From Minisyncoccota bacterium (GTDB lineage Bacteria; Patescibacteriota; Minisyncoccia; Phycocordibacterales; CAIZLB01), in contig DALYDD010000004.1 of NCBI GenBank assembly GCA_031973395.1, positions 447 through 61,013 of the forward strand: a stretch of DNA of 60,567 bases, given 5' to 3'. The notes beneath the pieces were generated by a model. It ran no database searches. It was given only the letters and a program-made list of their open reading frames with translations, and was not told the origin of the DNA. A program made the position numbers and the translations under genes. Within the stretch, counting starts at the first letter, position 1. Every line of letters begins with the position of its first letter. Below, piece by piece: positions 1 through 47,047 of the stretch.

Positions 1-255
1 ATGGGAAATGGAAAACGTATTCCAATGCTTAAGGGTAAAACGTCATCGGTATTCATTACTTGCGACGGCTCTATTATTCTGTACCTCATGATGGCACTTC
101 CATTTTGGTCAATTTGGAGATTTGCCACTCTGTACTATTGCGGTATTCGATTGCGCAAATTCAGAGTCTTAGATAAGAGCACGTGGTCAAGTCATGAACG
201 AAAAGATCGGTTTCTCGCCAAGGCAGAAGCTATTGGCAGGAGTCTAATGAAATAA
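1..255 (+). CDS. hypothetical protein, window-edge ORF (may be the 3' part of a longer gene)
   Basis: Open frame from the window edge to a stop at 253-255, 19 nt upstream of the next same-strand gene. Contains a hydrophobic stretch. No motif recognised. Confidence 0.2.
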   Translation: MGNGKRIPMLKGKTSSVFITCDGSIILYLMMALPFWSIWRFATLYYCGIRLRKFRVLDKSTWSSHERKDRFLAKAEAIGRSLMK

Positions 256-11478: not shown

Positions 11479-11550
11479 GCCGCCGTCGTTCAATGGATAG
11501 GACTATTCTTTCCTAAAGAATTAATGCAGGTTCGATTCCTGCCGGTGGCA
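11479..11550 (+). tRNA. tRNA-Arg(CCU): tRNA-Arg (anticodon CCU)
   Basis: Cloverleaf: acceptor GCCGCCG/CGGTGGC, anticodon arm ATTCT-TTCCTAA-AGAAT, T arm GCAGG-TTCGATT-CCTGC. No encoded CCA. Confidence 0.9.
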
Positions 11551-11592
11551 CAAATAAAAATACGCCGTAAGGCGATTTTTTATTTGTGCCAC
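11545..11592 (+). terminator. terminator hairpin whose 5' arm includes the tRNA-Arg 3' end
   Basis: GTGGCACAAATAAAAA / TTTTTATTTGTGCCAC (16 bp perfect), enclosing CGCC-GTAA-GGCG followed by a T-run. Confidence 0.7.
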
Positions 11593-11729
11593 GGAGCAGG
11601 CCAACTGCTTGGCCTGCGCGCAGGAATCGAAAAGGTTCTCCTTTATTTTCGAGAATGGAGCGTAGCGAGATTGGAGAAAATAGGGAACCTGTACTGGTCC
11701 TGTAAGGACCGATTCCTGCCGGGGGCACA
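11586..11729 (+). ncRNA. tRNA-trailer structured RNA module, copy A (unnamed family)
   Basis: H1 is GCAGGCCAA-CTGC-TTGGCCTGC. GCAGGAATCG (11620-11629) pairs with CGATTCCTGC (11710-11719). P3 is GGTTCTC/GGGAACC plus ATTTTC/GAAAAT. The hairpin GGTCC-TGTAA-GGACC follows. The module ends with a 21-nt copy of the tRNA-Arg 3' end. Homologous copies lie at 18859-19054 and 37112-37278. Confidence 0.65.
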
Positions 11730-11759
11730 ATTTTAAACAGAGTTTGCTATACTATACCC

Positions 11760-18775: not shown

Positions 18776-18858
18776 TTTAGAGGTATACGAAAAGAAAGGT
18801 TTAAATAAGGGGCTCGGTCACGAATCACTAAGTCTTTTTCTTCGCTACACTTGAAAAA

Positions 18859-19054
18859 GCCCAAGTGTTCGCTGTCCTTACAGGACCAGTACACCTTTTG
18901 GATCTTTTATTTCACTTCGTTCATAAAAGCTCTCAAAAGGTTTTACGCTTTGAGTGAAACTCAAGGCTCACCCGGCTCGCCTGTCGCAAAGCGACATGAC
19001 TCCGCCTTTCTCGCCCGGACGCAAGCCAAGCAGTTGGCTTGCTCCACTCGGCAC
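18859..19054 (-). ncRNA. tRNA-trailer structured RNA module, copy B (expanded/divergent)
   Basis: The minus strand carries H1 GCAAGCCAA-CTGC-TTGGCTTGC, P3 CCTTTTG/CAAAAGG plus CTTTTAT/ATAAAAG (compensatory relative to copies A and C), TGTACT-GGTCC-TGTAA-GGAC, and a closing GCCGAG/CTTGG(G)C followed by TTTTT. Confidence 0.55.
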
Positions 19055-19100
19055 AAAATACAAAAGCACCCAGATGGGTGCTTTTGTATTTTGTGCCGAG
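19047..19100 (-). terminator. terminator hairpin sequestering the tRNA-Phe 3' end
   Basis: Perfect 25-bp stem CTCGGCACAAAATACAAAAGCACCC / GGGTGCTTTTGTATTTTGTGCCGAG with loop ATCT. The inner GCACCC/GGGTGC stem is followed by a T-run. Confidence 0.7.
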
Positions 19101-36232: not shown

Positions 36233-36916
36233 CTAACGAGTTATCTCAATAAAATCATCGGCACCTTCCTCTAGTTTTAAGTATTTTTTCTTGACGATCG
36301 GCGGGTTGCTTCCATAATCTGTGATGGTATTTATATAGTATTGTTCACCGCTCTCTGTAGGTTGATCAGTTGGAGTGTAAAAATTTTGATATTCACGCAC
36401 AGAGAGTTCCCACCCACCGTCTGTAAATGTATACAATTCTTTTAAGAAGATATCACCTAGTCCACGACCTTTTGAACCATTGGTAAGTATGCGTTTTTCG
36501 GTATCTACGGTCACATAACCCAACACTGGATATTCGGGGCCGTATGCTATGTCTGAACTGATTTCATACTGTTCAAAATCTCGTGTATCTGGATTTTGAA
36601 CATAAAACTCAGTACCTACATTATAAGCTCCAATCAATATCTGCATTTGAATATCCTCTAACCCGTCAAAATTGATATCAACTTTTGATAGTTCTGTCAC
36701 TGGCGCGATATAATTAGTTTCAATCTTTGTCACATATCCATCTGTGTATGTAACTGTAAGGCTAATTGGTTTTTCTTCAGTATCGGAATCTGCATCTTCG
36801 GTTACTGTAAATGTATGTGACACATCGTTTTTCTTAGTATTGTTCTTGGTATAAGAGATATAGAACAAGCCGGTCAGTATAAGAACAACGAGAACGGCTA
36901 AGAGTATTTTTTTCAT
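36233..36916 (-). CDS. membrane-anchored hypothetical protein
   Basis: 227 aa with an N-terminal TM segment. No motif recognised. Confidence 0.5.
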   Translation of the reverse strand: MKKILLAVLVVLILTGLFYISYTKNNTKKNDVSHTFTVTEDADSDTEEKPISLTVTYTDGYVTKIETNYIAPVTELSKVDINFDGLEDIQMQILIGAYNVGTEFYVQNPDTRDFEQYEISSDIAYGPEYPVLGYVTVDTEKRILTNGSKGRGLGDIFLKELYTFTDGGWELSVREYQNFYTPTDQPTESGEQYYINTITDYGSNPPIVKKKYLKLEEGADDFIEITR

Positions 36917-37111
36917 ATAGTCTATATTGTACAGCTTGTAGAATTGGATTCAATGGCACTAAGCCTTTATATATCTGCAGCAATCCTCAGAGTCTTCAAG
37001 ACATGCTCATACTCTGCCGGCGAAATTGAAACTCTATCAATAGTGGTAGTAGTGAAATGTGCCTGTAGATGATAGGTGCCTCCAAAGGAAGCTTCTAGTG
37101 CTAGCTCTAAA

Positions 37112-37278
37112 TGGTGACCCTGCGGAGAGTTGGTCCTTACAGGACCAGTACAGGTTTCCCATTTTCTCAAATTTGATTCTAATTTCGGCTTCGCCTATGG
37201 GAATAAAATTATCGAAAATATGGGAGAACCTTTTCGACTCTCCGCCGCGAGCCAAGCAGTTGGCTCGCTTAGGGTCAC
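37112..37278 (-). ncRNA. tRNA-trailer structured RNA module, copy C (Glu-type, ends in ACCA)
   Basis: The minus strand reads GTGACCC-TA-[GCGAGCCAA-CTGC-TTGGCTCGC]-CGGAGAGT-CGAAAA-[GGTTCTCCC...GGGAAACC]-TGTACT-[GGTCC-TGTAA-GGACC]-A-ACTCTCCG-CA-GGGTCAC-CA. Confidence 0.65.
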
Positions 37279-37328
37279 ACTCGCAAAACAAAAACCACCT
37301 TTCGGTGGGTTTTGCTCGTGTGACCCCA
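37272..37328 (-). terminator. terminator hairpin originally abutting tRNA-Glu (now separated from it by the island)
   Basis: GGGTCACACGAGCAAAAC-CCACC-GAAA-GGTGG-TTTTTGTTTTGCGAGTGTGACCC. Confidence 0.6.
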
Positions 37329-37364
37329 TTGTACCTTAATTGGAACACTTTAGAGAACGCAATC

Positions 37365-37661
37365 TTATCTTGGAAGTCGTTTAGACTTTCGCGTTCTTTT
37401 GATATAAATCAATCCTAAAATGGCAAAAATGATTGCTAATACGGATAAGAAAGTGTGATTATTGAAAAAAGCATATACTCCATTGATCACGCAATACCTG
37501 CTTGTGCAAGGTTGCGAAAGCTCAATAAAAGAGTTGTGTCCGGAAATCTGATCTCCGATCCATATCGCAGCAATTGCAAACCCATACAGTGCAACTATCA
37601 TTGAAAACAACCATGCGATTCCACCAATGAAATAGCTGATGATTTTTATGTTTTTTGTCAT
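37365..37661 (-). CDS. small polytopic membrane protein (island)
   Basis: 98 aa, 3 predicted TM segments, basic tail. Confidence 0.45.
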   Translation of the reverse strand: MTKNIKIISYFIGGIAWLFSMIVALYGFAIAAIWIGDQISGHNSFIELSQPCTSRYCVINGVYAFFNNHTFLSVLAIIFAILGLIYIKRTRKSKRLPR

Positions 37662-37758
37662 TGTGAACCCATTGCGTGGCTTTCAGAACTTACTAAACAG
37701 AGGGATTATATCGTCTCTGCCATTCAGAACCTTGGCTCGCTTATGGTTTCGTAAATCT

Positions 37759-38343
37759 CTATTCTGTTAATGTAACTTCTATAAAATCATTTTTTTGTTC
37801 GGGGTGTTTTATATAGTACCTAAAAGACTTATAGGGCGACTTACCTTTACCTTTGAAATAGGTATAAAATTGCGGTCGGTATGATGTGTCATCTCCTCTT
37901 TGGTCGATTGACTCAATCCACTCAAAAGGTATCACACCTGTCATTAAGATATTTGATGATGTGTCGTTACTATCTTGAGGTTTCTTACTGAAAGAAGTGT
38001 CGCCTATACGATATGCGGATATGACCTCACAAAAAAACTCGACGCCAGCAAAATGATAACCTTTAATTTCTGCCCCTAGATAGGTATATCCGTGTCTATT
38101 TTCTGTATTGCTTGTAGGATAGTGGCTATCGTATTTCTTTATGTTGATTAGTTCTATCTTGCTACTTATTCCATTTCGGACCTTATATACAAGCTCATCA
38201 ACAATCTTTTGAATTGCCTCACGCCTAGTAAAACGTTCCCTGAATGACTGTTGTTTGGAAAGACTATAAACGTGATAGGCAACGAAAGTACCGATGACAA
38301 TTCCTACGACACTGATAATTGTATTTATAATTTCAATACTCAT
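37759..38343 (-). CDS. membrane-anchored hypothetical protein (island, last gene of the idi operon)
   Basis: 194 aa with an N-terminal TM segment (IINTIISVVGIVIGTFVAYHVY) and a soluble domain with no recognised motif. Confidence 0.5.
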   Translation of the reverse strand: MSIEIINTIISVVGIVIGTFVAYHVYSLSKQQSFRERFTRREAIQKIVDELVYKVRNGISSKIELINIKKYDSHYPTSNTENRHGYTYLGAEIKGYHFAGVEFFCEVISAYRIGDTSFSKKPQDSNDTSSNILMTGVIPFEWIESIDQRGDDTSYRPQFYTYFKGKGKSPYKSFRYYIKHPEQKNDFIEVTLTE

Positions 38344-38351
38344 ATAGGTAG

Positions 38352-38374
38352 GTTCACAACGTTCACTTGTTCAT
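38352..38374. promoter_or_regulatory. triple direct repeat GTTCAC-N3-GTTCAC-N2-GTTCAT immediately upstream of the 194-aa gene
   Basis: The same triplet array recurs at 40342-40365 and partially at 40222-40237. Inverted units occur at 40370-40392. Confidence 0.5.
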
Positions 38375-38375
38375 C

Positions 38376-39668
38376 CTAGCTCTTGGCCCAAACTGAAGAT
38401 AACCTATCTTTTTCATTATCAAGCCAAGTTATCATTTCTTTTGTACGCTTATTTACCAAAGATTGCTGTGGACGAATTTTCGTATCAAATTTAATTGAAA
38501 GCAATTTAACATATCTATTACCTTTTACTAAACTCACAACTAAATCTTCAAGAAAGCTTTTACTTTCAGATGGTTCAAATTCTTTCAGTGCTTCAAGTGC
38601 AATATAAGCGTAGGCTGTGGCGTCTACTAGAGCAAGCTTAATGTAGTCACCCTTTACCATCATCTCTCTCATCTTCTCTTGCCATTCCTGTTCTGATTTA
38701 TGCTTATAAAAATCTTCAAGAAGTGAAATGTGCTCATTGTTCTTGTTATTAAGCAGGATTTGAATTGGCCACGTAAGTCTCTCGTTTTTTATATCAATAA
38801 ATACATCTTCAGATACCTTCTCACGTGTAGGCGAATTATTTCCAGTCAAGTCTAGTGCGAAGTCTTGAATATCGTTTACCACCATCATCAACATACCATA
38901 GCAGAAAGCATACCTCGTTAATTGCTTCAATGTGTTGTTTTCAACCTTTTCAGAAAAAAGAGATGTGAGAATAGTAGGAAATCGCTCAATCATATAAGCA
39001 TTTAAACCGTAAGTGCGTTTCCAAACAAATTCCGCAATACTTGAAGCGTCTATTTTCACACCCTCTTTTAGTTCATTTTCCACTAGTTTTAGCTCTGGCT
39101 TTAAAATTTGAGCATCTAACTTTCTATCTTCTGAAATAGTAAGTGGTAGGAGATTATTCTTATTGAAATTATTATACACATTAAAGAGTGTATCGAATGT
39201 TTGACCTAGATATATACCTCTGTATATCTCTTCAGTAAATAATATAAGTTTTTCCTTTTGTTCATTGTTTAGCAATGTTGTTTCATTGATAAAATCAGAA
39301 TGACAGTCTCTTAAAAAAGTAGCCGTTTTAAAAGCCGTTATTTTTTTATCTCCAATATATCCAGACTTTCCATCTGCCCCGACATTATAACAATATGCTT
39401 GTATCATATTTAATTCCAAAGATGCACATAGAAAGTAAAATGCTTCACCAGTCTCTATGTTTAAAATATGTGCAATAAGATATAAGAAATGAGCTCGTGA
39501 ACTTTGCTTTGATGCAATTTTATCAAGAGCAAATTCTTTCAACATTAGGGCGACATCTTTATCTTCACATAACAGAGATTTATTTGTTAGAAACGAATTA
39601 AGAAACGGAAAATAACTTGCGTGTATTTCCTTCATCTGCTGAAACCTTTTTTCTGTTCTATCTAACAT
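38376..39668 (-). CDS. polyprenyl synthase/terpene synthase-fold protein with degenerate Asp-rich motifs (island)
   Basis: 430 aa. ASLELNMIQAYCYNVGAD occupies the place of the first DDxxD. YLGQTFD. FCYGMLMMVVNDIQDFALDLTG aligns with GxxFQxxDDxLDxTG. DIKNERLTWPI aligns with D(l)xxGKxTlP. Confidence 0.55.
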   Translation of the reverse strand: MLDRTEKRFQQMKEIHASYFPFLNSFLTNKSLLCEDKDVALMLKEFALDKIASKQSSRAHFLYLIAHILNIETGEAFYFLCASLELNMIQAYCYNVGADGKSGYIGDKKITAFKTATFLRDCHSDFINETTLLNNEQKEKLILFTEEIYRGIYLGQTFDTLFNVYNNFNKNNLLPLTISEDRKLDAQILKPELKLVENELKEGVKIDASSIAEFVWKRTYGLNAYMIERFPTILTSLFSEKVENNTLKQLTRYAFCYGMLMMVVNDIQDFALDLTGNNSPTREKVSEDVFIDIKNERLTWPIQILLNNKNNEHISLLEDFYKHKSEQEWQEKMREMMVKGDYIKLALVDATAYAYIALEALKEFEPSESKSFLEDLVVSLVKGNRYVKLLSIKFDTKIRPQQSLVNKRTKEMITWLDNEKDRLSSVWAKS

Positions 39669-40176
39669 TGTTGAGAAAGGTTTGGTTATTCATAATAATT
39701 TTCAACCATTCTGTATAGAGGGTAGGATTATTCTCAATATCTTTCTTAAGCTCTGCAATTTTAATCCATTTATATTCTGATACCTCTTCAAAATTTGGAT
39801 GTGGCTCTTCATCACTGTTACCAATAAAGACGTGGTCAAACTCATTTTCAACTAGACCATTTTCTAATTCAACTTTATACATAAAAGTAAACAATTCTTC
39901 CAAATCACAATCAATCCCCATTTCTTCTTGAAGTCTTCTGTGAATTGCCACTCTCAAATTTTCGTTTTCTTTAGGATGACTACAGCACGTATTACTCCAT
40001 AAACCACCAGAATGATATTTAGCGGGATTTCTTCTTTGTAGGAGAAGTTCAGTATTTTTATTAAATATAAAAATAGAAAATGCCTCGTGGAGAACACCAG
40101 ATTTATGTGCTTCCAGTTTTTCAACTGTGCCTATCCTGTTTCCTTCTTTATCTACTAGATTTATTAAGTCACCCAT
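39658..40176 (-). CDS. idi: isopentenyl-diphosphate delta-isomerase, type 1 (Nudix fold) (island)
   Basis: 172 aa, collinear with E. coli Idi. EAH..GVLHEAFS supplies the His ligands. WSNTCCSHP supplies the catalytic Cys and a His. ENEFDHVF is the E-x-E motif. EVSEYKWI is also present. Confidence 0.85.
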   Translation of the reverse strand: MGDLINLVDKEGNRIGTVEKLEAHKSGVLHEAFSIFIFNKNTELLLQRRNPAKYHSGGLWSNTCCSHPKENENLRVAIHRRLQEEMGIDCDLEELFTFMYKVELENGLVENEFDHVFIGNSDEEPHPNFEEVSEYKWIKIAELKKDIENNPTLYTEWLKIIMNNQTFLNNVR

Positions 40177-40221
40177 AATTATTTGACCATAATATCAAAA
40201 ATTTCTCAAAACATCTAGACA

Positions 40222-40393
40222 TTCACGACGTTCACACTTGAGAAATAATTTGCACAAAAAAGTAGCTCTTTTTCGACTAATTTCGCCTAATTTATATCAA
40301 GACAACCCGAACCCTTTATAAAACTCTGTTTTTATTGTAAAGTTCACAATGTTCACCACGTTCATTTTTGTGAACGTGTGTACGATGTGAATG
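40222..40393. promoter_or_regulatory. divergent control region of the island with GTTCAC iteron-like repeats
   Basis: ATTCACGACGTTCAC lies at 40222-40236. GTTCAC occurs at 40342 and 40351, and GTTCAT at 40360, on a 9-nt period. The palindrome CACGTTCA-N5-TGAACGTG lies at 40357-40377. GTGAAT overlaps the ATG at 40391. Confidence 0.5.
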
Positions 40394-41791
40394 TATATGA
40401 AATTGAGTGGTAATGACAAAAAAATACTAGAGACACTTTTCAATATGCGAGGCGGTTATGTCTTGGATTTTTCCGATAGACGGATGACGGAGTTTTTCAA
40501 GGAAGAATTTGGGATAAATATCTATGATGAGAAATACGACTTTGATTTTCCAAGTAAATCCAAGGCTAACCGTTTGCGTGGTATCTGGCTCAAAGAGGAT
40601 GTGTTGGTTGTGGGACAGATAATCCTATCCCTCGTGGACTACTATGAGACAAGTCTTCTTGTTGAGAATAAAGAGATACCACAGAATACCAAAGACCTTA
40701 TTCAAAAAGGACGTGAAATTGGTGCAAGATTGCTTTTCAATGAAATGGCGAGAGGCAATGAACCGATAGTCAAAGCTATTACTGACAAGACAGCCCTCAT
40801 CAGAAACTTCAATTCTATTGATTACAAAGCTCTCAAAACCAATGAGAAAATATACTTATTGAAGGTCCTGTATTCATATTACGAAGCCATCATACGAACA
40901 TACTACGGCTCTGGTTTATTTTTCTTAACCTCTGGCATTGATGACCTGAATGACTACTTCAAAGTACTACGAAAAAGGATAATAGAAATTATCGCTTCAG
41001 ATGACACGTTTTTGGATATAAAGAACAGCCACGCCTACACGCAAATTATCGAACCTATCACAAGCCTGTATGTGAGTGCCGAGTTTTTGGACGCTATTTG
41101 GGATGATGCAATACTCCCTTCGATTATCAATATGCGTGAAGATATTGCTGATAAGGACCTATTTGAAAATCAGTCTGAAGTACACCAAGAGACAGGTATA
41201 GGATTACCACTTTTCCTTGAAGCGATTAAAAGAGAAATGGAAAAGATGAAAAAATATCTGGACCAGAGGACAAAAAGCTTTTATGCTACTGACTTACCGA
41301 AACATAAAGAGGTTTTTGAAAAAGCTTCTGGCGAGCCGAAAAAAGATGATGTCATAAAGCACGAACACACCCATCTTTTCAAAAATAGTATCCAAGAGAA
41401 AGAGATAGTCCTAAACCACAAGTTCGAGGATGGTAAACCAAGCACTAACTACATCACTAAAAAGGGCGATGATTTCTACTATAAAGGTCTTCATATTCTC
41501 GCCAACAAGAAAAATAATGATTACTACAAGGTATTTTCTGCTCTGTACGCAAAACTTCCCGATGGTGGTGAAATATCATACAAAGACCTTATTTCTGAAA
41601 TAAAAAGCCGTATGTCTGACCAAAAGAATAAGACAGATGATGAGATGCAGAAGTTTATTCAAAGAAACCTTACCGATAGAGGTAACGGCTTTATGAGATA
41701 CGCAAACATACCAGAGACAGAAGACAACGGAAAGCCACTTATCTCTGTCATTCGTGGCACTGGAGTAGTGTTCAATAACAAAACAGGCTAG
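40391..41791 (+). CDS. hypothetical protein (island)
   Basis: 466 aa, helical and charged. No motif recognised. Confidence 0.5.
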   Translation: MYMKLSGNDKKILETLFNMRGGYVLDFSDRRMTEFFKEEFGINIYDEKYDFDFPSKSKANRLRGIWLKEDVLVVGQIILSLVDYYETSLLVENKEIPQNTKDLIQKGREIGARLLFNEMARGNEPIVKAITDKTALIRNFNSIDYKALKTNEKIYLLKVLYSYYEAIIRTYYGSGLFFLTSGIDDLNDYFKVLRKRIIEIIASDDTFLDIKNSHAYTQIIEPITSLYVSAEFLDAIWDDAILPSIINMREDIADKDLFENQSEVHQETGIGLPLFLEAIKREMEKMKKYLDQRTKSFYATDLPKHKEVFEKASGEPKKDDVIKHEHTHLFKNSIQEKEIVLNHKFEDGKPSTNYITKKGDDFYYKGLHILANKKNNDYYKVFSALYAKLPDGGEISYKDLISEIKSRMSDQKNKTDDEMQKFIQRNLTDRGNGFMRYANIPETEDNGKPLISVIRGTGVVFNNKTG

Positions 41792-41965
41792 TTCCTGACT
41801 TTTCCTGAAAAATAATTATAGACTGTCCCGAAACACCCTTGAAATACGGGGTGTTTTTCTATTTACAGGAAATCAAATGAAATACGCAGAACATTCTCAA
41901 AAGGCAAAAATTGGTATGTAGCTTTTCTTGGCGGAAGTACACATATCAATAAAACACCAATATAA

Positions 41966-42253
41966 ATGTTTATGAAAAAACACATAGCAGAAGTTCCTCT
42001 CGACGATTATAAGAACTATTACTACTCAAACGACATTGATGTCGCATCGGTACTCGTGTGCAAGGGATACACGCTCGAAGATGTGGTCCCCATCTCAAAC
42101 AATAAGGCGACTTTTGTCTTCAAAAATCATCCTGCCATCACCGATGCAGTTGATGGATTTTGGAGTAACCGAATTGAGGTCCATCCTCTTGAATTTGCCA
42201 ACGCTCGCAAGAACCTGAAGTCTCGCATTTTTGGTATGCGAAAAGATTACTAA
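41966..42253 (+). CDS. small hypothetical protein (island)
   Basis: 95 aa. The pattern LVCKGYTLEDV...ATFVF...AI..FW......V.PLEF..A.K.LKSRI resembles small phage/plasmid-associated proteins. The assignment is tentative. Confidence 0.45.
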   Translation: MFMKKHIAEVPLDDYKNYYYSNDIDVASVLVCKGYTLEDVVPISNNKATFVFKNHPAITDAVDGFWSNRIEVHPLEFANARKNLKSRIFGMRKDY

Positions 42254-42265
42254 CCACTAATAAAA

Positions 42266-43642
42266 ATGTATATGCAAAACAATGAAGAAAAAATAATAAA
42301 GCCAATACTAAAAACTGCCATCTTCACCACAGATACTCTCTACGAAATGGTTTTTGACCGCAATGCAAACAAGACATCTTTCACCAAAATAAACCGTGAT
42401 GGAACGATTGAATATCTCCTCGAAGAAGTTGATATTGATGGTAGAAAATACAAACCACTTCCACCAACTTACAACCTCGTAGACAAAGACGTGATACTTT
42501 TCCCATCCGTTGCTACCGAGTATCAAAGTGAGGAAGAAATACTCAAAGAGATACAGACCTTCATACACAAATACCTAGACATCTCTGAAGTGTTCGAACA
42601 GATAGCCACTTATTATGTCCTCTTTACTTGGATGTTTGATAAGTTCAACGAGGTCCCATATCTCCGTGCCATAGGCGACTTTGGTAGCGGTAAATCTCGC
42701 TTTATTCAAGCTATAGGCATCCTATGCTACAAACCTGTGTTTACGGGCGGTGCGACTACTCCTAGCCCCATATTTCGCATTGTAAACGAGGTACACGGCA
42801 CACTTATCATTGATGAAGCCGACTTCAAGTTCTCTGATATGACCTCTGAAATCGTAAAGATTTTGAACACTGGATACCAGAGAGGTATGCCAGTCTTGAG
42901 GTCCGAAGGCAAAGGTACTTTTGAGGTAAAAGCGTATGACGTTTTCTGTCCGAAGATAGTCGCTACTCGTGAGACATTTTCTGATAAGGCACTTGAAAGC
43001 CGATTTCTCGTCGAAGAAATGGGTGCAGGAAAACTGCGTGCAGATATTCCAAGAACACTCGATGAGAGCTTTTACAAAGAAGCTGAACTCATCAGAAATA
43101 AGCTTTTGATGTGGCGATTGAAAAACTACTTTGAGCCTATCGAGCGAAGACACGACCTCATCGAAGGTATACATCCTCGCCTCAATCAGATAGTGATGCC
43201 ATTGCTTTCAATTATCAAAGACGAAGCGATACGTGAGCACCTCAAAACATTCATCGTGAAATACAATACAGACCTTGTAGCTGACCGAGGACTTTCTTGG
43301 GAAAGCGACATCGTGTTTGCGGTACTAAAACTTGAATACGAATTGAAGGTCCACGAAATTACCGTCAAACAGATAACTGATGAAGTAAACAAGGAAATCG
43401 ACATCACTGACGACACACTACAAGCTCGAAAAGTCGGATGGTATCTACGTTCAAAGTTACAGCTCAAACCATACAAAACACGAAAAGGTTTTGTGCTCTC
43501 CTTCAAGGAAAATAAAAAGCGACTTGATATGTGGAAAGAACGCTTCGGCATAACCGATGCGGATATTCGAGGTGAACAAGTGAATGTCGTGAACGATACC
43601 AAAACAGTAGATGCACCAACGGCTGAAGAGCTTGGATTTTAA
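42266..43642 (+). CDS. P-loop NTPase, putative replication initiator/helicase-like protein (island)
   Basis: Walker A DFGSGKSRF and Walker B LIIDEADF, with arginine-containing downstream motifs. Its size and context suggest an element replication protein. Confidence 0.55.
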   Translation: MYMQNNEEKIIKPILKTAIFTTDTLYEMVFDRNANKTSFTKINRDGTIEYLLEEVDIDGRKYKPLPPTYNLVDKDVILFPSVATEYQSEEEILKEIQTFIHKYLDISEVFEQIATYYVLFTWMFDKFNEVPYLRAIGDFGSGKSRFIQAIGILCYKPVFTGGATTPSPIFRIVNEVHGTLIIDEADFKFSDMTSEIVKILNTGYQRGMPVLRSEGKGTFEVKAYDVFCPKIVATRETFSDKALESRFLVEEMGAGKLRADIPRTLDESFYKEAELIRNKLLMWRLKNYFEPIERRHDLIEGIHPRLNQIVMPLLSIIKDEAIREHLKTFIVKYNTDLVADRGLSWESDIVFAVLKLEYELKVHEITVKQITDEVNKEIDITDDTLQARKVGWYLRSKLQLKPYKTRKGFVLSFKENKKRLDMWKERFGITDADIRGEQVNVVNDTKTVDAPTAEELGF

Positions 43643-43662
43643 TCATTAACTAAGTCAAAACA

Positions 43663-43920
43663 ATGGAAGAAAAAATCATATTCGAGACTGGCTATACAGA
43701 AGACGAGATACAAAGCTTCTCTGAAGCAAATTATGGGCGTGAGCTGACAGAAATTGAGATACACAGAATGAGAGACTATTTGTGGGATGACGATGATGTG
43801 TCTTGGGCACGAATAGAACTGATGGCAAAAGCAATCGAGGCGGTAATGGATAACGAAGGCAACCAATGGAAATCGGTAGACGAAGATTATCAATCTAATT
43901 CAAAACAAAATGAGCGATAA
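43663..43920 (+). CDS. small acidic hypothetical protein (island)
   Basis: 85 aa, very acidic. Overlaps the next gene by 11 nt. Confidence 0.4.
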   Translation: MEEKIIFETGYTEDEIQSFSEANYGRELTEIEIHRMRDYLWDDDDVSWARIELMAKAIEAVMDNEGNQWKSVDEDYQSNSKQNER

Positions 43921-44416
43921 AAGTGGTCCAAAAACAGACGAAGGAAAAGCTGTATCAAAATACAATGCCATAAAGCACGGCTTGCTTACCAAAGAAGTCC
44001 TTGTTGATGCTGACGAAGTGAATGACCTTAATCAACTCAAGGAAGCGTTATACGAAGCCCTAGACCCTGTAGGTCCAATGGAAAACCTACTCGTGGACCG
44101 CATTATCTCAAACGCTTGGAGACTGCGAAGAGCTATCCAAGTCGAGACCAAAACTATGGAGTGGTATCAGAACGATTTTGACTTTTTCCCTGTAGGACAA
44201 AGCGAAGAACAGCAAGCACGAAAAAGCGTAAAGAATATGTTGAGCAATGACAGTGTAGACACCATCCTTCGCTACGAAACTACCATCGAACGAAGCCTCT
44301 TTCGAGCACTCCACGAACTAGAACGTTTACAGGCAAAAAGGAACGGAAAAGATGTCCAAGTTCCTGCCGTGGTCGATGTAAATCTCGATAGTTCGTTTCG
44401 CAAAAATGAACTGTAA
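43910..44416 (+). CDS. hypothetical protein (island)
   Basis: 168 aa, helical. No motif recognised. Confidence 0.45.
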   Translation: MSDKSGPKTDEGKAVSKYNAIKHGLLTKEVLVDADEVNDLNQLKEALYEALDPVGPMENLLVDRIISNAWRLRRAIQVETKTMEWYQNDFDFFPVGQSEEQQARKSVKNMLSNDSVDTILRYETTIERSLFRALHELERLQAKRNGKDVQVPAVVDVNLDSSFRKNEL

Positions 44417-44459
44417 AAACGGTTAAACCCTATTGATTTCGGACACTTAACAAACCTTT

Positions 44460-45077
44460 ATGAGCAAATCAGAAGCTGACTGGTGCAAGAAAATAGAAAT
44501 ATGGTGGTTACTTCGAGACATAAAAGAAAAAGGTGGCTACAAATACACTACCATATCTTGGGGTGAAGACGGCTCTCGTGGAAGTATATCGGTCCAAGTA
44601 TCTGTATGCGATGAAGAAAAATACGCTCGCTTTATCTACACCCAAATAGACAACTCTACAGGTGAAAAGAAGGACTATGACTATAAGGTCCCGATAATCG
44701 AAACTCCCTGTCATTTTGGCGGTACTCGATACTGGTTCAAGTGCAATCTCTACAAGAATAATCAGTATTGCGGACGACGTGTCGGTGTCCTCTATAAAGA
44801 TGGAAACTGGTTCGGATGCCGACATTGCTACGAACTTACCTACGCCTCAAGAAAAGTGAATAAGCGATACAAACACTATCCGATGTTTCGGGTCCTTGAG
44901 ATTGATGCAGAAATCGAAAAGCTTGAACAAAAAGCGAAGCGTTATACCTACAAAGGCGTACCCACAAAAAGACGACAAAAACTAGTGAAACTCTATCAAG
45001 AAGCATCTCGCAATTATCGTGCATTTTCTGACACAGAAAAGGGTCTTAACGTGCACAAAAAAGGTCGAAGATTTTAG
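44460..45077 (+). CDS. Cys-rich (zinc-ribbon-like) hypothetical protein (island)
   Basis: 205 aa. CHFGG...C...C and C..C spacing. Basic C-terminus. Confidence 0.45.
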   Translation: MSKSEADWCKKIEIWWLLRDIKEKGGYKYTTISWGEDGSRGSISVQVSVCDEEKYARFIYTQIDNSTGEKKDYDYKVPIIETPCHFGGTRYWFKCNLYKNNQYCGRRVGVLYKDGNWFGCRHCYELTYASRKVNKRYKHYPMFRVLEIDAEIEKLEQKAKRYTYKGVPTKRRQKLVKLYQEASRNYRAFSDTEKGLNVHKKGRRF

Positions 45078-45091
45078 CAAAAAATGATATT

Positions 45092-45328
45092 ATGAACTCA
45101 TTACACGAAAGCCAAAATAATACCCTCACGGTTGAGAATACTGGAAAGCTTTTGTGTGATGAGAAGGCATCTGTAGTTCTCTCAAAGGACACACTCAATG
45201 CTCTTGAAGAGCTTGGCGATGTATTGAGAGGTATTCATAAAAGGATGGTATTTGAAGGATACGAAATTGTGGATGGAAACATTCGCAAACTAGTGCCTCA
45301 AAATGTAAATGTATATGAAAAAGTCTAG
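45092..45328 (+). CDS. small hypothetical protein overlapping the recombinase start (possible accessory/directionality factor)
   Basis: 78 aa. Its 3' end overlaps the recombinase gene by 20 nt. The function is inferred from position only. Confidence 0.35.
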   Translation: MNSLHESQNNTLTVENTGKLLCDEKASVVLSKDTLNALEELGDVLRGIHKRMVFEGYEIVDGNIRKLVPQNVNVYEKV

Positions 45329-47036
45329 TATCAAAACTGAAAAAGATTTGATTGCCGAAATACTCAACGGAAAATACCGTGACTGTTATTTAATATATAA
45401 CCGCAAGAGCACTGACGAAGCCGACAATCAGAAGAACTCCATTTCATATCAAAAATCAGAGAACGCTCGATACGCTTATCGAGAAAAACTTTCAATAGCT
45501 CAAATTACCATTAAAGGTTTCTCTGCCGATGGTATTATTTCCGAAAAACATTCTGGCTTTACCGAAGATGACGATATAAACATCACCGATGATGGCTTGG
45601 TCCAATATAGGATTGATAGACCAAAGTTTCAGAAGATGCTTCAGTTCGTAAGCCAAGGATATTTCAAAGGTGTTATCTGTTTGTGTTGGGACCGTATAAG
45701 CCGAAACAAAGGTGACGATACTCTTATCCGCAAACTTATGCGTAAGGGTGTTGATTTCCGTTTCGTGTATGCCAATTACGAGAAGACCAGCTCTGGTGCT
45801 TTGCATATGGACATCGACGGTATGTTCTCACAACACCACTCACGTGTTACCAGTGAAAAAGTTACCATCACCATACGAAATTCAAGAGAAAAAGGCATTT
45901 GTACCTATCGTGCACCGATTGGATATTTGAATAATGGTACGATGGAAGATAAGCCGATGGACCCATTTCGTGCACCCATCATCAAGCAGATGTATGAGTA
46001 CTATGCTACTGGCGATTGGAGTTTGTCTGACCTCGCTCGTTACGCCAATGAGCAGGGTTTTACGACTGTACCAATGCGACGTAGAAGGACAAAAGAAGAA
46101 ATGCTCGCTGAAGAGGATGAGTTTGAGGAAATTGAAAAGACATCACGCCCTGTAACTGAAAATCATATAAGCAGAATACTCACTAATCCTTTTTATACTG
46201 GAAAGGTCCTCAATTCAGAAGGCAAATACATACCAAGCAATAGCCATCAAGCTATTGTAACCGAAAAGCTATTCGAGGATGTGCAAGCTATACTCAAAAA
46301 GAAAAAAGTGAGTGTTCACTATACTGAAAAACTGGACCAACCACTTCGAGGTATCGTACGTTGTGAACAATGTGGACGTGTTTATACACCTTACACAAAG
46401 AAAGGTATTCAATACTATAACTCTCGATGTGTGAATGGTTGCTCAAACACCCTCAAGAACTTCAACTTTGATTTTATAGATAAGAAAATTGGCGGTCTCA
46501 TCACTGGTCTTCATTTTACCGATGACGAAATTGAGCAGATGGATGCTCGTGCAGGTACAGAGATTGCTTTGCTTGAAGAAAAGCGACACAAGAAACTCGA
46601 CCAAGTAGAGAGAAAGAAGAAAAAGATACGTGAGGACCTTGCGTATCTACGTTCAAATAAAATATCTCTTTTGAAATCTGGAGTTTACACACCAGAAGGT
46701 TATGTTGCTGAAGAGACAAAACTTGATAGCGAACTTTCTGTATTGAAAAACAGTGAAAACATTTCTGACATTGCTATACACGAAACTATGAAGGACGTAC
46801 AAAAACTTTCAGAACTTGTGAAAAACGTTGCACCTTATTACCAATTCGCAAAACCACACGAAAAAGAACAAATTGTTCGTGTTATCTTTTCAGAACTTTC
46901 AGTTTCCCAAAATACGTTGAATTATAAGTGCAAAAAAGGATTTGAGTGCTTTGAAAATCGCTTTCTTGCTGTTTGTGACCCTACGGAGAGTCGAACTCCG
47001 CTTCTCGCCTTGAAAAGGCGATGTCCTAACCGATAG
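45309..47036 (+). CDS. large serine recombinase (integrase) of the island
   Basis: The N-terminal resolvase domain contains YNRKSTDE (Ser nucleophile) and CWDRISRN. The recombinase domain contains YRAPIGY. A zinc ribbon (CEQCG...C..GC) and a coiled coil follow. The last 18 codons read antisense through tRNA-Glu beyond the att core. Confidence 0.85.
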   Translation: MYMKKSSIKTEKDLIAEILNGKYRDCYLIYNRKSTDEADNQKNSISYQKSENARYAYREKLSIAQITIKGFSADGIISEKHSGFTEDDDINITDDGLVQYRIDRPKFQKMLQFVSQGYFKGVICLCWDRISRNKGDDTLIRKLMRKGVDFRFVYANYEKTSSGALHMDIDGMFSQHHSRVTSEKVTITIRNSREKGICTYRAPIGYLNNGTMEDKPMDPFRAPIIKQMYEYYATGDWSLSDLARYANEQGFTTVPMRRRRTKEEMLAEEDEFEEIEKTSRPVTENHISRILTNPFYTGKVLNSEGKYIPSNSHQAIVTEKLFEDVQAILKKKKVSVHYTEKLDQPLRGIVRCEQCGRVYTPYTKKGIQYYNSRCVNGCSNTLKNFNFDFIDKKIGGLITGLHFTDDEIEQMDARAGTEIALLEEKRHKKLDQVERKKKKIREDLAYLRSNKISLLKSGVYTPEGYVAEETKLDSELSVLKNSENISDIAIHETMKDVQKLSELVKNVAPYYQFAKPHEKEQIVRVIFSELSVSQNTLNYKCKKGFECFENRFLAVCDPTESRTPLLALKRRCPNR

Positions 47037-47047
47037 ACGATAGGGCC
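46976..47047 (-). tRNA. tRNA-Glu(UUC): tRNA-Glu (anticodon UUC)
   Basis: GGCCCTATCGTCTATCGGTTAGGACATCGCCTTTTCAAGGCGAGAAGCGGAGTTCGACTCTCCGTAGGGTCA forms a canonical 72-nt cloverleaf. Confidence 0.9.

What the first reader, a model, noticed from the sequence alone, without database searches (positions are those of the whole stretch)
37319..46981. 9.65 kb large-serine-recombinase island integrated at the tRNA-Glu 3' end with an 8-nt core TGTGACCC
The identical core TGTGACCC flanks the segment at 37319-37326 and 46974-46981. A short core with no long direct repeat fits serine-recombinase chemistry. Deleting the segment recreates a tRNA-Glu + terminator hairpin junction matching the two other tRNA loci. 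The cargo consists of an isoprenoid-type operon, a P-loop replication-like protein, and six or more orphan ORFs. No capsid, tail or conjugation genes were recognised, so this looks like a small integrative plasmid-like element. As far as I know, few such elements have been described for CPR-type genomes.
Basis: partly seen in the sequence, partly recalled or inferred. Interest (0 to 1): 0.6.

Follow-up and report, generated by a model that had tools for sequence, protein, structure and literature searches.

The report
Serine-recombinase mobile element at tRNA-Glu
A roughly 9.3-kb, probably self-replicating mobile DNA element has been inserted by a large serine recombinase at the very end of a tRNA-Glu gene in a tiny Paceibacteria (CPR) bacterium, next to a 343-bp leftover of an older insertion; it belongs to a widespread family, not found in the papers searched, that also occurs as free circles.

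Summary
TGTGACCC lies at 37319-37326 and 46974-46981, and the recombinase (45309-47036) is intact. Deleting the segment rebuilds a tRNA-Glu plus trailer junction. That junction matches the tRNA-Arg and tRNA-Phe loci of the window and an uninterrupted syntenic site in the closest relative found (L009).

Relatives make the case for mobility:
- 41 of 89 related loci carry the recombinase gene end against an antisense tRNA-Glu, in unrelated chromosomal contexts.
- One relative (L024, recombinase 84% identical) is a closed 11.7-kb circle with an intact attP.
- In the source sample the element's ends join two different left flanks and two tRNA-Glu variants.

One refinement. The mobile unit is 37662-46978 (about 9.31 kb), and the shared core is TGTGA, not 8 nt. 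Near-identical copies elsewhere end at 37661/37662. The outer 343 bp (37319-37661) is a separate relic with a degenerate element-type arm.

The backbone includes a P-loop protein that is fused to Prim-Pol in some relatives. Cargo varies between copies (here IPP isomerase plus a prenyl-synthase-like gene). No capsid or conjugation genes were recognised.

It is a new member of a known kind. The closest precedents are the Dehalococcoides ssrA islands, tycheposons and SCC. No excision reads could be examined.

The parts
37112..37318 (-). Displaced trailer module of tRNA-Glu: terminator hairpin, antisense copy of the tRNA end, two hairpins, sense copy ending in ACCA. It is host DNA, not part of the element. 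Before any insertion its first hairpin was the tRNA-distal arm of attB.
   Evidence: Collinear with the tRNA-Arg and tRNA-Phe trailers and with the uninterrupted tRNA-Glu loci L009 and L005-L007.
37319..37326 (.). Outer left junction. Core TGTGA (37319-37323), followed by CCC.
   Evidence: Same geometry as family junctions: TGTGA, 4 nt, then ATTG.
37324..37346 (+). Degenerate element-type (P'-like) arm CCCCATTGTACCTTAATTGGAAC. It keeps ATTG at +5..8 and GAAC at +20..23 after the core.
   Evidence: Comparison with 10 family P' arms.
37327..37661 (-). Relic segment between the two cores. It holds a 98-aa ORF (37365-37661) with hydrophobic N- and C-terminal stretches, whose ATG abuts the inner core.
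   Evidence: Absent from the 99.5% identical copy L013 and from all 96 fetched loci. The ORF product is not in the protein collection. The segment is present in Logan's own assembly of the source run (record 2).
37662..37666 (.). Inner left core TGTGA: the left end of the canonical mobile unit (attL).
   Evidence: Homology to L013, X5, X9 and an X2 side-branch starts at 37661/37662, each time with a different flank.
37667..37689 (+). P' arm ACCC-ATTGCGTGGCTTTCAGAAC, the attP-derived half-site.
   Evidence: Same arm, at most 4 mismatches to the 19-nt ATTGCGTGGCTTTCAGAAC, at the left ends of L001, L003, L013, L015, L018, L025 and L026, and directly behind the recombinase gene in the free-form sites of L024 and L051-L053.
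37759..38343 (-). 194-aa protein with a hydrophobic N-terminus; conserved left-end gene of the element.
   Evidence: 94-100% identical in L001 and L013. Its 90% cluster has 14 members, one of them on 78 contigs.
38376..39668 (-). Cargo: 430-aa polyprenyl-synthase-like protein. The similarity is weak, C-terminal half only, and below the family cut-offs.
   Evidence: Pfam PF00348 at 23.7 bits against a cut-off of 27; NCBIfam hits far below cut-off. Found only here and in L013.
39658..40176 (-). Cargo: type-1 isopentenyl-diphosphate isomerase (NUDIX fold).
   Evidence: NCBIfam NF002995 at 167.9 bits (cut-off 127) and TIGR02150 at 122.1 bits (cut-off 105.8). Pfam NUDIX.
40177..40390 (.). Divergent control region between the cargo operon and the backbone operon, with GTTCAC-type repeats.
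   Evidence: Repeat families D16, I7 and I20.
40391..41791 (+). 466-aa multi-domain backbone protein of unknown function.
   Evidence: 91-100% identical in 6 loci; only its C-terminal domain is shared with L024, L027 and L059. 1361 representative proteins share single domains with it. No Pfam, PHROG, PADLOC or PDB hit.
41966..42253 (+). DUF5659 protein (95 aa), backbone.
   Evidence: Pfam PF18903 at 45.8 bits. Present in 24 loci.
42266..43642 (+). 458-aa P-loop ATPase (Walker A GDFGSGKS, Walker B LIIDEAD): probable replication helicase/initiator.
   Evidence: 81% identical over 434 aa to the C-terminal part of P0354, whose N-terminus is Prim-Pol plus PriCT_1. Best fold hits, not significant, are the NrS-1 primase-polymerase C-terminal region and ORC/Cdc6/MCM.
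43663..45077 (+). Three backbone ORFs of unknown function: 85 aa (43663-43920), 168 aa (43910-44416) and 205 aa with four invariant Cys (44460-45077).
   Evidence: Conserved in 7, 22 and 35 loci respectively. The 205-aa model (pLDDT 75) has no significant fold match in PDB or BFVD.
45092..45328 (+). 78-aa protein overlapping the recombinase start by 20 nt. Candidate recombination directionality factor or regulator (inferred).
   Evidence: Accompanies the recombinase in 78 of 89 loci. Conserved motif LSKDTL.ALEELG.VL..IH.RM.SEGYEIVDG. No Pfam family.
45309..47036 (+). Large serine recombinase, 575 aa. Its last 18 codons are antisense tRNA-Glu.
   Evidence: Pfam Resolvase, Recombinase and a weak Zn_ribbon_recom. 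PHROG 95 integrase, E = 1.2e-59. Invariant Y30 R32 S34 D36 Q41, D128 R129 R132 and C352 C355 C374 C378. YNRKST aligns with YTRVST of TP901-1 integrase.
46950..46973 (+). P arm of attP (TTTGAAAATCGCTTTCTTGCTGTT), lying inside the recombinase coding sequence.
   Evidence: Found with at most 7 mismatches in 40 fetched loci as well as the window, always ending in the core; the core is TGTGA in all but L070, which has TGTGG.
46974..46978 (.). Right core TGTGA, equal to tRNA positions 75-71 on the other strand. This is attR.
   Evidence: Sequence conservation among elements stops here and host-specific tRNA-Glu sequence begins.
46975..47047 (-). tRNA-Glu(UUC), intact. It is the tRNA-side arm of attB.
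   Evidence: ARAGORN. Rfam tRNA at 55.4 bits.

Best explanation
Window 37662-46978 is one copy of a widespread family of small (about 8-12 kb) integrative, probably self-replicating, plasmid-like elements of Paceibacteria/Parcubacteria.

Shown:
- The element's large serine recombinase gene ends in its own attachment site. attP consists of a P arm (the last conserved codons of the gene), the core TGTGA, and a P' arm (4 nt, then ATTGCGTGGCTTTCAGAAC).
- The partner site attB is the extreme 3' end of tRNA-Glu.
- Comparison of left and right junctions places the strand exchange inside GTGA, that is at tRNA positions 71-74 (the last two acceptor-stem nucleotides, T71 and C72, the discriminator A73 and the first trailer nucleotide). 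The whole tRNA is kept and only its trailer is replaced.
- In this genome the insertion separated tRNA-Glu from its structured trailer module.

Inferred:
- The enzyme's zinc-ribbon domain reads a TC(N)GAAC motif. In the tRNA this motif is the antisense T-loop, and in P' it lies 5 bp further out, as in the accepted serine-integrase model.
- The 78-aa gene coupled to the recombinase is a candidate directionality factor or regulator.
- The P-loop protein, fused to Prim-Pol in some relatives, drives episomal replication.
- The minus-strand block next to P' is an exchangeable cargo slot. Here it holds IPP isomerase and a prenyl-synthase-like gene. In relatives it holds a ThyX-like gene, a class II aminoacyl-tRNA synthetase, a restriction-modification pair or a methyltransferase.
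- The outer 343 bp (37319-37661), bounded by a second TGTGA and a degenerate P'-type arm, is the stump of an earlier insertion at the same tRNA. The present element then inserted next to the tRNA and pushed the stump outward (accretion).
For: Recombinase intact.

The junction is rebuilt by deletion and matches paralogous and orthologous uninterrupted sites.

Family size: 966 recombinase homologues at E <= 1e-10, the top 120 being 62-92% identical. 1496 P-loop homologues, the top 120 being 77-100% identical and labelled by their sources as Moranbacteria, Nomurabacteria, Pacebacteria and similar. The nearest TrxB of any other genome is only 79% identical.

Target: of 89 loci, 41 have an antisense tRNA-Glu (CUC 24, UUC 17) at the recombinase 3' end. 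Eight loci of more divergent clades have tRNA-Ala, Leu, Arg or Trp there.

Element and host sequence part company at the core. Recombinases 95-98% identical sit beside tRNA-Glu genes sharing only 55-61 of 72 positions with the window's.

Free form: L024 has a 127-bp terminal overlap, giving an 11,707-bp circle. It carries the same backbone and an intact P-TGTGA-P' site.

Left end at 37662:
- L013 is 99.5% identical over 37661-46981 and has another flank.
- X5 and X9 contigs start at 37661/37662 with other flanks.
- In the source sample, unitigs branch at 37661 (depth 6.4 against 3.1) and at 46981 (7.3 against 3.6, leading into a tRNA-Glu variant). Island depth exceeds flank depth.

Crossover window: L003 differs between left and right junction at core position 1. 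L015, L018, L025 and the window's inner junction differ at position 6.

Half-site geometry: TTTCNGAAC at +15..23 in every P' arm examined, including the divergent L036 and L091. The tRNA side has TCGAAC at +13..18.

Replication: fusion of the P-loop protein to Prim-Pol/PriCT_1 in relatives.

Cargo exchange.

Accretion precedent within the family: L001 has two P' arms 655 bp apart.
Against: No read shows excision, a circle or an empty site for this particular copy. Only assembled contigs of the source runs were served, and they drop rare forms.

The closed circle is a relative whose recombinase is 84% identical, not this element.

The dyad symmetry of attP is weak, and the exact central dinucleotide is unresolved between GT, TG and GA.

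The P-loop model is poor (pLDDT 62.9) and its fold matches are not significant. No Prim-Pol domain was recognised in this copy.

No directionality factor has been demonstrated.

The origin of the 343-bp relic is inferred. It has no homologue in any fetched locus, and its right edge carries no recognisable recombinase-gene remnant.

Serine integrases normally do not use attL or attR as targets. Stacking therefore needs either a tolerant tRNA-distal arm or an aberrant excision that regenerated a usable site.
Confidence: 0.85

Rival explanations
1. One reading: one 9.65-kb element whose ends are the two TGTGACCC copies at 37319 and 46974, with the 98-aa ORF segment as part of the element.
For: Exact 8-nt identity at both ends. 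Deleting the whole span restores the tRNA-plus-module junction. The outer arm keeps the family geometry of TGTGA, 4 nt, ATTG ... GAAC. The composite could still excise as one unit.
Against: Every other copy of the near-identical element ends at 37661/37662 with a different flank: L013, X5, X9 and the X2 side branch. The outer arm lacks the conserved TGG.TTTC part. The 343 bp has no counterpart in any of 96 loci.
Confidence: 0.12
2. The element is a small temperate virus or a phage satellite (PICI-like) rather than a plasmid-like episome. The orphan backbone genes would encode unrecognised capsid or helper-hijacking functions, and transfer would be in particles.
For: Its size and layout (integrase, small regulator, primase-helicase-type replication gene, orphans) resemble satellites. 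Four to six backbone proteins have no assignable function. The ATPase core has a 33% identical relative in an uncultured virus, Rctr41k.
Against: No capsid, terminase, portal or tail family in Pfam or PHROGs. No relative of the recombinase or the P-loop protein in IMG/VR. The 205-aa protein model matches nothing in the viral structure library. A remote relative also sits on a 17.6-kb haloarchaeal plasmid.
Confidence: 0.2
3. A fixed genomic island: an old insertion that is no longer mobile, with a domesticated or decaying recombinase.
For: No excision product was seen in the contigs of three runs.
Against: All catalytic and zinc-binding residues are invariant. A 99.5-100% identical copy occurs in other contexts, including a second context in the same sample and a 2025 wastewater run.
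Confidence: 0.04
4. Classical tRNA-duplication island. The 17-nt near-repeat GTGACCCT(G/A)CGGAGAG at 37114-37130 and 46975-46991 would be the displaced tRNA 3' end, so the island would run from 37114 and include the 37112-37318 module.
For: The repeat exists, with 1 mismatch, and ends in an encoded CCA-like ACCA.
Against: The same sense copy closes the trailer modules of tRNA-Arg and tRNA-Phe, which carry no island. It is also present at uninterrupted tRNA-Glu sites (L009, L005). It is therefore part of the module, not an att duplicate.
Confidence: 0.02

Closest known systems
Dehalococcoides ssrA-specific genomic islands with the serine recombinase DsiB (McMurdie et al. 2011, PMC3146451; read)
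   Same: A CcrB-like large serine recombinase gene sits at the island edge and its ORF runs through its own att site into the antisense 3' end of a tRNA-like gene. Islands stack in tandem next to the target. Units lacking the integration module are interpreted as cis-mobilisable relics (accretion). Cargo is metabolic.
   Different: There the target is tmRNA (ssrA), with insertion in the T-loop and a 20-bp direct repeat. Here the target is the last nucleotides of tRNA-Glu and only TGTGA is shared. The present element has no second small serine recombinase (DsiA), ParB or Mom module. It does have a P-loop/Prim-Pol-type replication gene, and a relative is a closed circle. The host phylum differs.
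Tycheposons of Prochlorococcus (Hackl et al., bioRxiv 10.1101/2020.12.28.424599; read)
   Same: Small cargo-carrying elements that integrate site-specifically at tRNA genes, carry primase/helicase-type replication genes, exchange cargo and leave remnants. Newer arrivals push older ones away from the tRNA.
   Different: 910 of 937 tycheposon-type elements use tyrosine recombinases and leave partial tRNA duplicates. The family here uses a large serine recombinase with a 5-nt core. Its hosts are Patescibacteria.
Phage serine integrases (phiC31, Bxb1, TP901-1, A118/LI) - from general knowledge, plus the alignment
   Same: Domain order: resolvase catalytic domain, recombinase domain, zinc ribbon. 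Short non-palindromic crossover core with no long repeat. A distal motif lies 5 bp further out in the attP arm than in the attB arm (compare Rutherford et al. 2013, from my own knowledge).
   Different: Those enzymes serve tailed phages and target protein-coding or intergenic sites. Here attP is embedded in the recombinase gene itself, the target is a tRNA terminus, and no virion genes are present.
SCC elements of staphylococci with CcrAB/CcrC (general knowledge; discussed in PMC3146451)
   Same: Large-serine-recombinase cassettes at the 3' end of one conserved gene. Composite arrays with recombinase-less remnants separated by short repeats. A weak NCBIfam hit to CcrB.
   Different: SCC targets rlmH (orfX) and usually needs two recombinases. 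It has no replication module of this type.

Membership tests
Large serine recombinase (serine integrase) | N-terminal resolvase-type catalytic domain with the nucleophilic serine and its arginines | tested here: met
   PF00239 at 54.5 bits. Y30, R32, S34, D36, Q41, D128, R129 and R132 are invariant in 20 homologues. LIYNRKST aligns with AIYTRVST of TP901-1 integrase, 3bvp.
Large serine recombinase (serine integrase) | Recombinase domain followed by a zinc-ribbon domain | tested here: met
   PF07508 at 58.3 bits. PF13408 is only 19.1 bits, below its cut-off of 25.3, but C352, C355, C374 and C378 are invariant. PHROG 95 integrase, E = 1.2e-59, covering residues 102-535.
Large serine recombinase (serine integrase) | Short crossover core without a long direct repeat; attL and attR are hybrids of two unlike sites | tested here: met
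   Left and right junctions of L015, L018 and L025 share only TGTGA. The arms on either side are unrelated.
Large serine recombinase (serine integrase) | A distal DNA motif lies about 5 bp further from the centre in attP half-sites than in attB half-sites | tested here: inconclusive
   This holds for the P' arm against the tRNA arm: GAAC at +20..23 against +15..18. The other pair of arms is too variable to judge, and the dyad scan was ambiguous.
Large serine recombinase (serine integrase) | Catalyses attP x attB recombination; excision needs a directionality factor | not testable with these tools
   Needs an expression assay. The 78-aa partner gene is only a candidate.
Integrative self-replicating plasmid-like element (tycheposon-like) | Exists both integrated and as a free circle carrying attP | tested here: met
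   Met for the family only: L024 is a circular contig with attP. Not shown for this copy.
Integrative self-replicating plasmid-like element (tycheposon-like) | Own replication gene(s) | tested here: inconclusive
   Walker A/B protein that is fused to Prim-Pol plus PriCT_1 in relatives. The fold model is weak. No primase domain was found in this copy.
Integrative self-replicating plasmid-like element (tycheposon-like) | Tyrosine recombinase and a partial tRNA duplicate at the far end | tested here: not met
   The only recombinase is a serine recombinase. The tRNA-like copy at 37111-37130 belongs to the trailer module.
Dehalococcoides ssrA-GI type | Target is ssrA, with a 20-bp direct repeat and the DsiA/ParB/Mom integration module | tested here: not met
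   The target is tRNA-Glu. No second resolvase, ParB or Mom family was hit.
Dehalococcoides ssrA-GI type | Recombinase ORF overlaps its att site and the antisense target gene; tandem accretion | tested here: met
   The ORF runs to 47036, through the core at 46974-46978. A relic with a second core lies at 37319-37661. L001 has two P' arms.
Prophage or phage satellite | Capsid, terminase, portal or packaging-related genes | tested here: not met
   No such Pfam or PHROG family. No IMG/VR relatives. No viral fold match for the 205-aa protein. Unrecognised proteins remain.
Integrative conjugative or mobilisable element | Relaxase, coupling protein or type IV secretion genes | tested here: not met
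   None of the 12 island proteins hits such a family.

The most novel reading that the evidence does not exclude
The structured trailer modules that follow tRNA genes in these genomes and the serine-recombinase elements use the same junction. The module's terminal sense copy of the tRNA 3' end may act as a second, decoy attachment site, capturing incoming elements away from the tRNA. In L021 a 92% identical recombinase is attached not to tRNA-Glu but to such a copy 183 nt downstream. An 11-nt repeat TGTGACCCTAC is present, and the tRNA's own terminator is left in place. The alternative is that the modules are themselves mobile and insert at the same point.
Probability: 0.12. Interest if true: 0.7.

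Novelty: new member of a known kind. Interest (0 to 1): 0.5.

Why it matters
Mobile elements of the Candidate Phyla Radiation are barely described. [quoted passage not shown]

This window gives a cleanly delimited member of what appears to be a very common Paceibacteria element, with its attP, attB, attL and attR resolved to a few nucleotides. The family moves metabolic and defence genes between species: IPP isomerase, a ThyX-like gene, an aminoacyl-tRNA synthetase and a restriction-modification pair.

Its recombinases form a natural series that targets the 3' ends of different tRNAs. That makes them candidate site-specific integration tools for organisms that have almost no genetics.

The copy here adds three things:
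- a two-layer left end, which shows accretion;
- evidence of two contexts for the same element in one community;
- a direct link to the tRNA trailer modules.

Tried and rejected
- **Whole-genome tools.** Other copies in the window's own genome and its named relatives could not be searched.
- **A hidden tRNA or known RNA at 36850-37450.** ARAGORN with introns gave nothing credible, and Rfam at E <= 10 gave only noise.
- **The 17-nt near-repeat as an att duplicate.** Rejected; it belongs to the trailer module.
- **Circle or empty-site joints in the source runs.** None was seen, but only Logan contigs at 5-8x depth were served. The empty-site pattern scan of JGI metagenomes found nothing.
- **IMG/VR scans** with the recombinase and the P-loop protein found no relatives.
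- **Dyad-symmetry scan of 12 attP sites** to fix the central dinucleotide was ambiguous.
- **PDB sequence searches** with the P-loop protein, its profile, the 466-aa protein and the single recombinase found nothing useful.
- **AlphaFold model of the P-loop protein** was mediocre and had no significant fold match.
- **Model of the 205-aa protein** was acceptable but matched nothing in PDB or BFVD.
- **PADLOC** gave no defence family in the island.
- **Pfam at E <= 1** on the 78-aa and 205-aa families gave noise only.
- **Literature searches** for this family found no description.
- **blastn and tblastn of the 343-bp relic** against all loci found nothing.

Full report
**1. The observation**

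The 8-mer TGTGACCC lies at 37319-37326 and 46974-46981. With four copies in the window against 1.15 expected, and 2 of 100 shuffles reaching four, the count alone proves little. The context matters more.

The right copy is the 3' end of tRNA-Glu(UUC), 46975-47047 on the minus strand. It also lies inside the last codons of a 575-aa ORF (45309-47036). That ORF carries the Resolvase, Recombinase and (weakly) zinc-ribbon domains and matches the PHROG integrase family 95 at E = 1.2e-59.

In an alignment of 20 homologues the residues Y30, R32, S34, D36, Q41, D128, R129 and R132 and four cysteines are invariant. A profile of that alignment places LIYNRKST on AIYTRVST of the TP901-1 integrase catalytic domain. 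The recombinase is intact.

GC content drops to 0.31-0.43 inside the segment, against about 0.42-0.46 outside.

**2. The rebuilt junction**

Joining 37318 to 46974 gives, on the minus strand:
- tRNA-Glu ending in GGGTCACA;
- a terminator hairpin;
- an antisense TGTGACCC;
- the hairpin GCGAGCCAACTGCTTGGCTCGC;
- a GGTCCTGTAAGGACC hairpin;
- a sense copy of the tRNA end.

The trailers of tRNA-Arg and tRNA-Phe in the same window have exactly this order of parts.

A pattern that demands the antisense copy within 25-55 nt of the tRNA-Glu end found three uninterrupted sites in Paceibacteria genomes (L005-L007).

The closest relative I could find by thioredoxin reductase is L009, at 78% identity. L009 has the same FtsZ-TrxB-tRNA-Val...tRNA-Glu neighbourhood. 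Its tRNA-Glu shares 70 of 72 positions with the window's. The tRNA is followed without interruption by a module collinear with the rebuilt window junction as far as CCAT..AGCTAGCAC.

The near-repeat at 37114-37130, which I first took for a displaced tRNA end, is part of that module and not an att duplicate.

**3. The family**

The recombinase has 966 homologues at E <= 1e-10. The best 120 are 62-92% identical and mostly 555-606 aa long; where named, they are labelled Parcubacteria.

In loci fetched through these proteins and from JGI metagenomes, the end of the recombinase gene...TTTGAAAATCGCTTTCTTGCTGTT-TGTGA, is conserved. The sequence then switches abruptly to the local tRNA-Glu.

Across the 89 loci with a homologue:

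| What lies at the recombinase 3' end | Loci |
|---|---|
| Antisense tRNA-Glu(CUC) | 24 |
| Antisense tRNA-Glu(UUC) | 17 |
| tRNA-Ala, Leu, Arg or Trp (clades 58-71% identical) | 8 |
| Contig end | 13 |
| No tRNA | 26 |

Recombinases 95-98% identical to the window's sit beside tRNA-Glu genes that share only 55-61 of 72 positions with the window's. Chromosomal flanks differ: Mur ligase, PBP and MraZ genes in L001, and a syntenic locus with other cargo in L003.

The P-loop protein is 77-100% identical across the 120 best hits, from many sources. The host's TrxB has no relative above 79%. This is the signature of horizontal spread.

**4. Free form**

In L024 the recombinase gene (84% identical) is followed not by a tRNA but by TGTGA-CCCC-ATTGCGTGGCTTTCAGAAC. 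This is the same arm that forms the left end of the integrated copies.

The contig has a 127-bp terminal direct overlap, so it is a circle of 11,707 bp. It carries the same backbone: P-loop 88%, orf168 90%, orf205 87%, orf78 64%, DUF5659 57%. Its cargo is a ResIII helicase and an N6/N4 methylase.

attP-type sites also occur in L036, L091 and L051-L053.

**5. The true left end**

The conserved arm ATTGCGTGGCTTTCAGAAC lies in the window at 37671-37689, preceded by TGTGA-ACCC (37662-37670). It does not lie at 37319. Four observations place the element's end there:
- L013, from an NCBI assembly, is 99.5% identical to 37661-46981. It has a different flank to the left and stops at 46981.
- A read-length contig of a 2025 wastewater RNA-seq run (X5) is 100% identical from 37662 onward and different before it.
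- A 7.9-kb contig of a bioreactor run (X9) ends with 37661-37908, preceded by a module-like hairpin.
- In the source sample itself (X2, X3) the assembly graph branches at both ends. At 37661-37690 one path comes from the window's sequence (depth 6.4) and another from TTTCAAAACGCGAAGTATCTTT (depth 3.1). At 46952-46981 one path leads into the window's tRNA-Glu (depth 7.3) and another into a variant with three differences (depth 3.6 in X2, 2.1 in X3). The island interior is deeper than its flanks: 8.0-8.6 against 6.2-6.6 in X2.

So the unit that moves is 37662-46978, about 9.31 kb.

The 343 bp between the two cores begins with a degenerate arm, CCCCATTGTACCTTAATTGGAAC. This arm keeps ATTG and GAAC at the family positions. 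The segment holds a 98-aa ORF with two hydrophobic stretches. It has no counterpart in any fetched locus or in the protein collection.

I read it as the stump of an earlier insertion. L001 shows a similar stack, with two arms 655 bp apart, each preceded by GTTCACAACGTTCACATGTTCAC and TGTGA. X9 holds a deletion derivative that joins 40529 to 46456.

**6. Where the strands are exchanged**

In L003 the left junction reads GGTGA and the right junction TGTGA, so core position 1 lies outside the crossover. In L015, L018, L025 and the window's inner junction the left reads TGTGA-A and the right TGTGA-C, so position 6 lies outside as well.

The crossover dinucleotide is therefore GT, TG or GA within GTGA. 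On the tRNA strand this is T71-C72-A73-C74. The mature tRNA is left whole and only its trailer is replaced.

All P' arms, including the divergent ones, carry TTTCNGAAC at +15..23. The tRNA side carries the antisense T-loop TCGAAC at +13..18. GAAC therefore lies 5 bp further out in P'. This is the relation described for the attP and attB half-sites of serine integrases (Rutherford et al. 2013, from my own knowledge). A dyad-symmetry scan did not settle the centre.

**7. Gene content**

- **Backbone (plus strand):** a 466-aa multi-domain protein, a DUF5659 protein, and the 458-aa Walker A/B protein.
- **The 458-aa protein** is 81% identical to the C-terminal part of relatives whose N-terminus is Prim-Pol plus PriCT_1. 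Its model is mediocre. The best fold hits, none significant, are the NrS-1 primase-polymerase C-terminal region and ORC/Cdc6/MCM. The only remote relatives in the two annotated collections searched are a 17.6-kb haloarchaeal plasmid and an uncultured virus.
- **Three orphans** of 85, 168 and 205 aa follow. The 205-aa model matches nothing.
- **A 78-aa gene** overlaps the recombinase start and accompanies it in 78 of 89 loci.
- **Cargo (minus strand):** a conserved 194-aa protein with a hydrophobic N-terminus, a weak polyprenyl-synthase-like protein and a bona fide type-1 IPP isomerase. The latter two occur only here and in L013.
- No capsid, terminase, relaxase or secretion family was found, and no defence family.

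**8. Comparison with what is known**

The closest published case is the Dehalococcoides ssrA islands. Their CcrB-like recombinase gene overlaps its att site and the antisense tmRNA gene, and the islands accrete in tandem. They use a 20-bp repeat in the T-loop and a different gene module (PMC3146451).

Tycheposons share the tRNA target, the replication genes, the cargo exchange and the accretion model, but nearly all use tyrosine recombinases.

Six literature searches found no description of this Patescibacteria family. Other windows of this scan have met the same family. Those are unchecked notes, not independent evidence, although my circle (L024) and stacking observations agree with them.

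**9. Limits**

- The source runs were available only as contigs, so excision of this copy is untested.
- The replication role, the directionality factor and the history of the relic are inferences.

**Verdict**

It is a new member of a known kind and of moderate interest.

Noticed in passing
window 11533-11730 (+), 18850-19093 (-), 37112-37318 (-): All three tRNA genes (Arg, Phe, Glu) are followed by a module with the same parts: a terminator hairpin, an antisense copy of that tRNA's 3' end, a (G/C)NNGCCAACTGCTTGGC-type hairpin, a GGTCCTGTAAGGAC(C) hairpin and, for Arg and Glu, a sense copy of the tRNA end. tRNA-Val has only a terminator.
   Followed up: partly
L021:1830-2110: A recombinase 92% identical to the window's is joined to a sense copy of the tRNA-Glu 3' end 183 nt downstream of the tRNA, not to the tRNA itself. 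TGTGACCCTAC occurs at both places, and the tRNA keeps its terminator hairpin. Either the element integrated into a decoy copy, or a trailer segment was inserted later.
   Followed up: partly
window 40385-40402, 41959-41979, 42259-42279, 45302-45322: Four backbone genes start within a repeated motif AAT(G/A)TAAATGT(A/T)TATG(A/C)AAA. Three of the proteins therefore begin MYMK or MYMQ and the fourth begins MFMK. This looks like a shared translation-start or regulatory signal.
   Followed up: no
window 38352-38373, 40216-40237, 40333-40356, 43573-43594; L001:1500-1530 and 2160-2183: GTTCAC(A/G)A(C/T)GTTCAC-type repeats mark gene starts in the island. In L001 the same repeat abuts both TGTGA cores. 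Its complement GTGAAC resembles the GAAC motif of the att arms.
   Followed up: no
window 40529 / 46456 (run X9): A 635-nt contig of a bioreactor metagenome joins 40529 to 46456, skipping 5926 nt. This is a deletion derivative of a related element that lacks the whole backbone but keeps the recombinase 3' end and the core.
   Followed up: no
L051:1-21668 (also L052, L053): A recombinase 66% identical to the window's, with an attP-type site (P arm, TGTGA, CCCCATTGCGTGG...), lies inside a 34-kb contig. That contig carries TIR, SIR2, histidine-kinase/response-regulator and cytochrome c genes and no tRNA. This is not a CPR-like context, and its state (large plasmid, or an immobile copy) is unexplained.
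   Followed up: partly
window 36867-37194, 37662-37797, 40467-40616, 40920-41070 (runs X4, X5): Two 2025 wastewater RNA-seq runs hold read-length contigs 100% identical to the host intergenic/module region (X4) and to three parts of the element (X5). The same element, and perhaps the same organism, therefore occurs far from the riverine source. These stretches may be transcribed, though DNA carry-over is not excluded.
   Followed up: no
L038, L039, L049, L050 (tRNA-Ala); L085, L086 (tRNA-Leu); L040 (tRNA-Arg); L092 (tRNA-Trp): More divergent clades of the same recombinase family (58-71% identity) overlap the antisense 3' ends of other tRNAs. This is a natural series of changed target specificity.
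   Followed up: partly
L018:11670-11792: Behind the core the sequence starts like a tRNA-Glu 3' end (CTCTACGGGGAGTCGA) and then departs from it. ARAGORN calls no tRNA before the contig ends 122 nt later.
   Followed up: no
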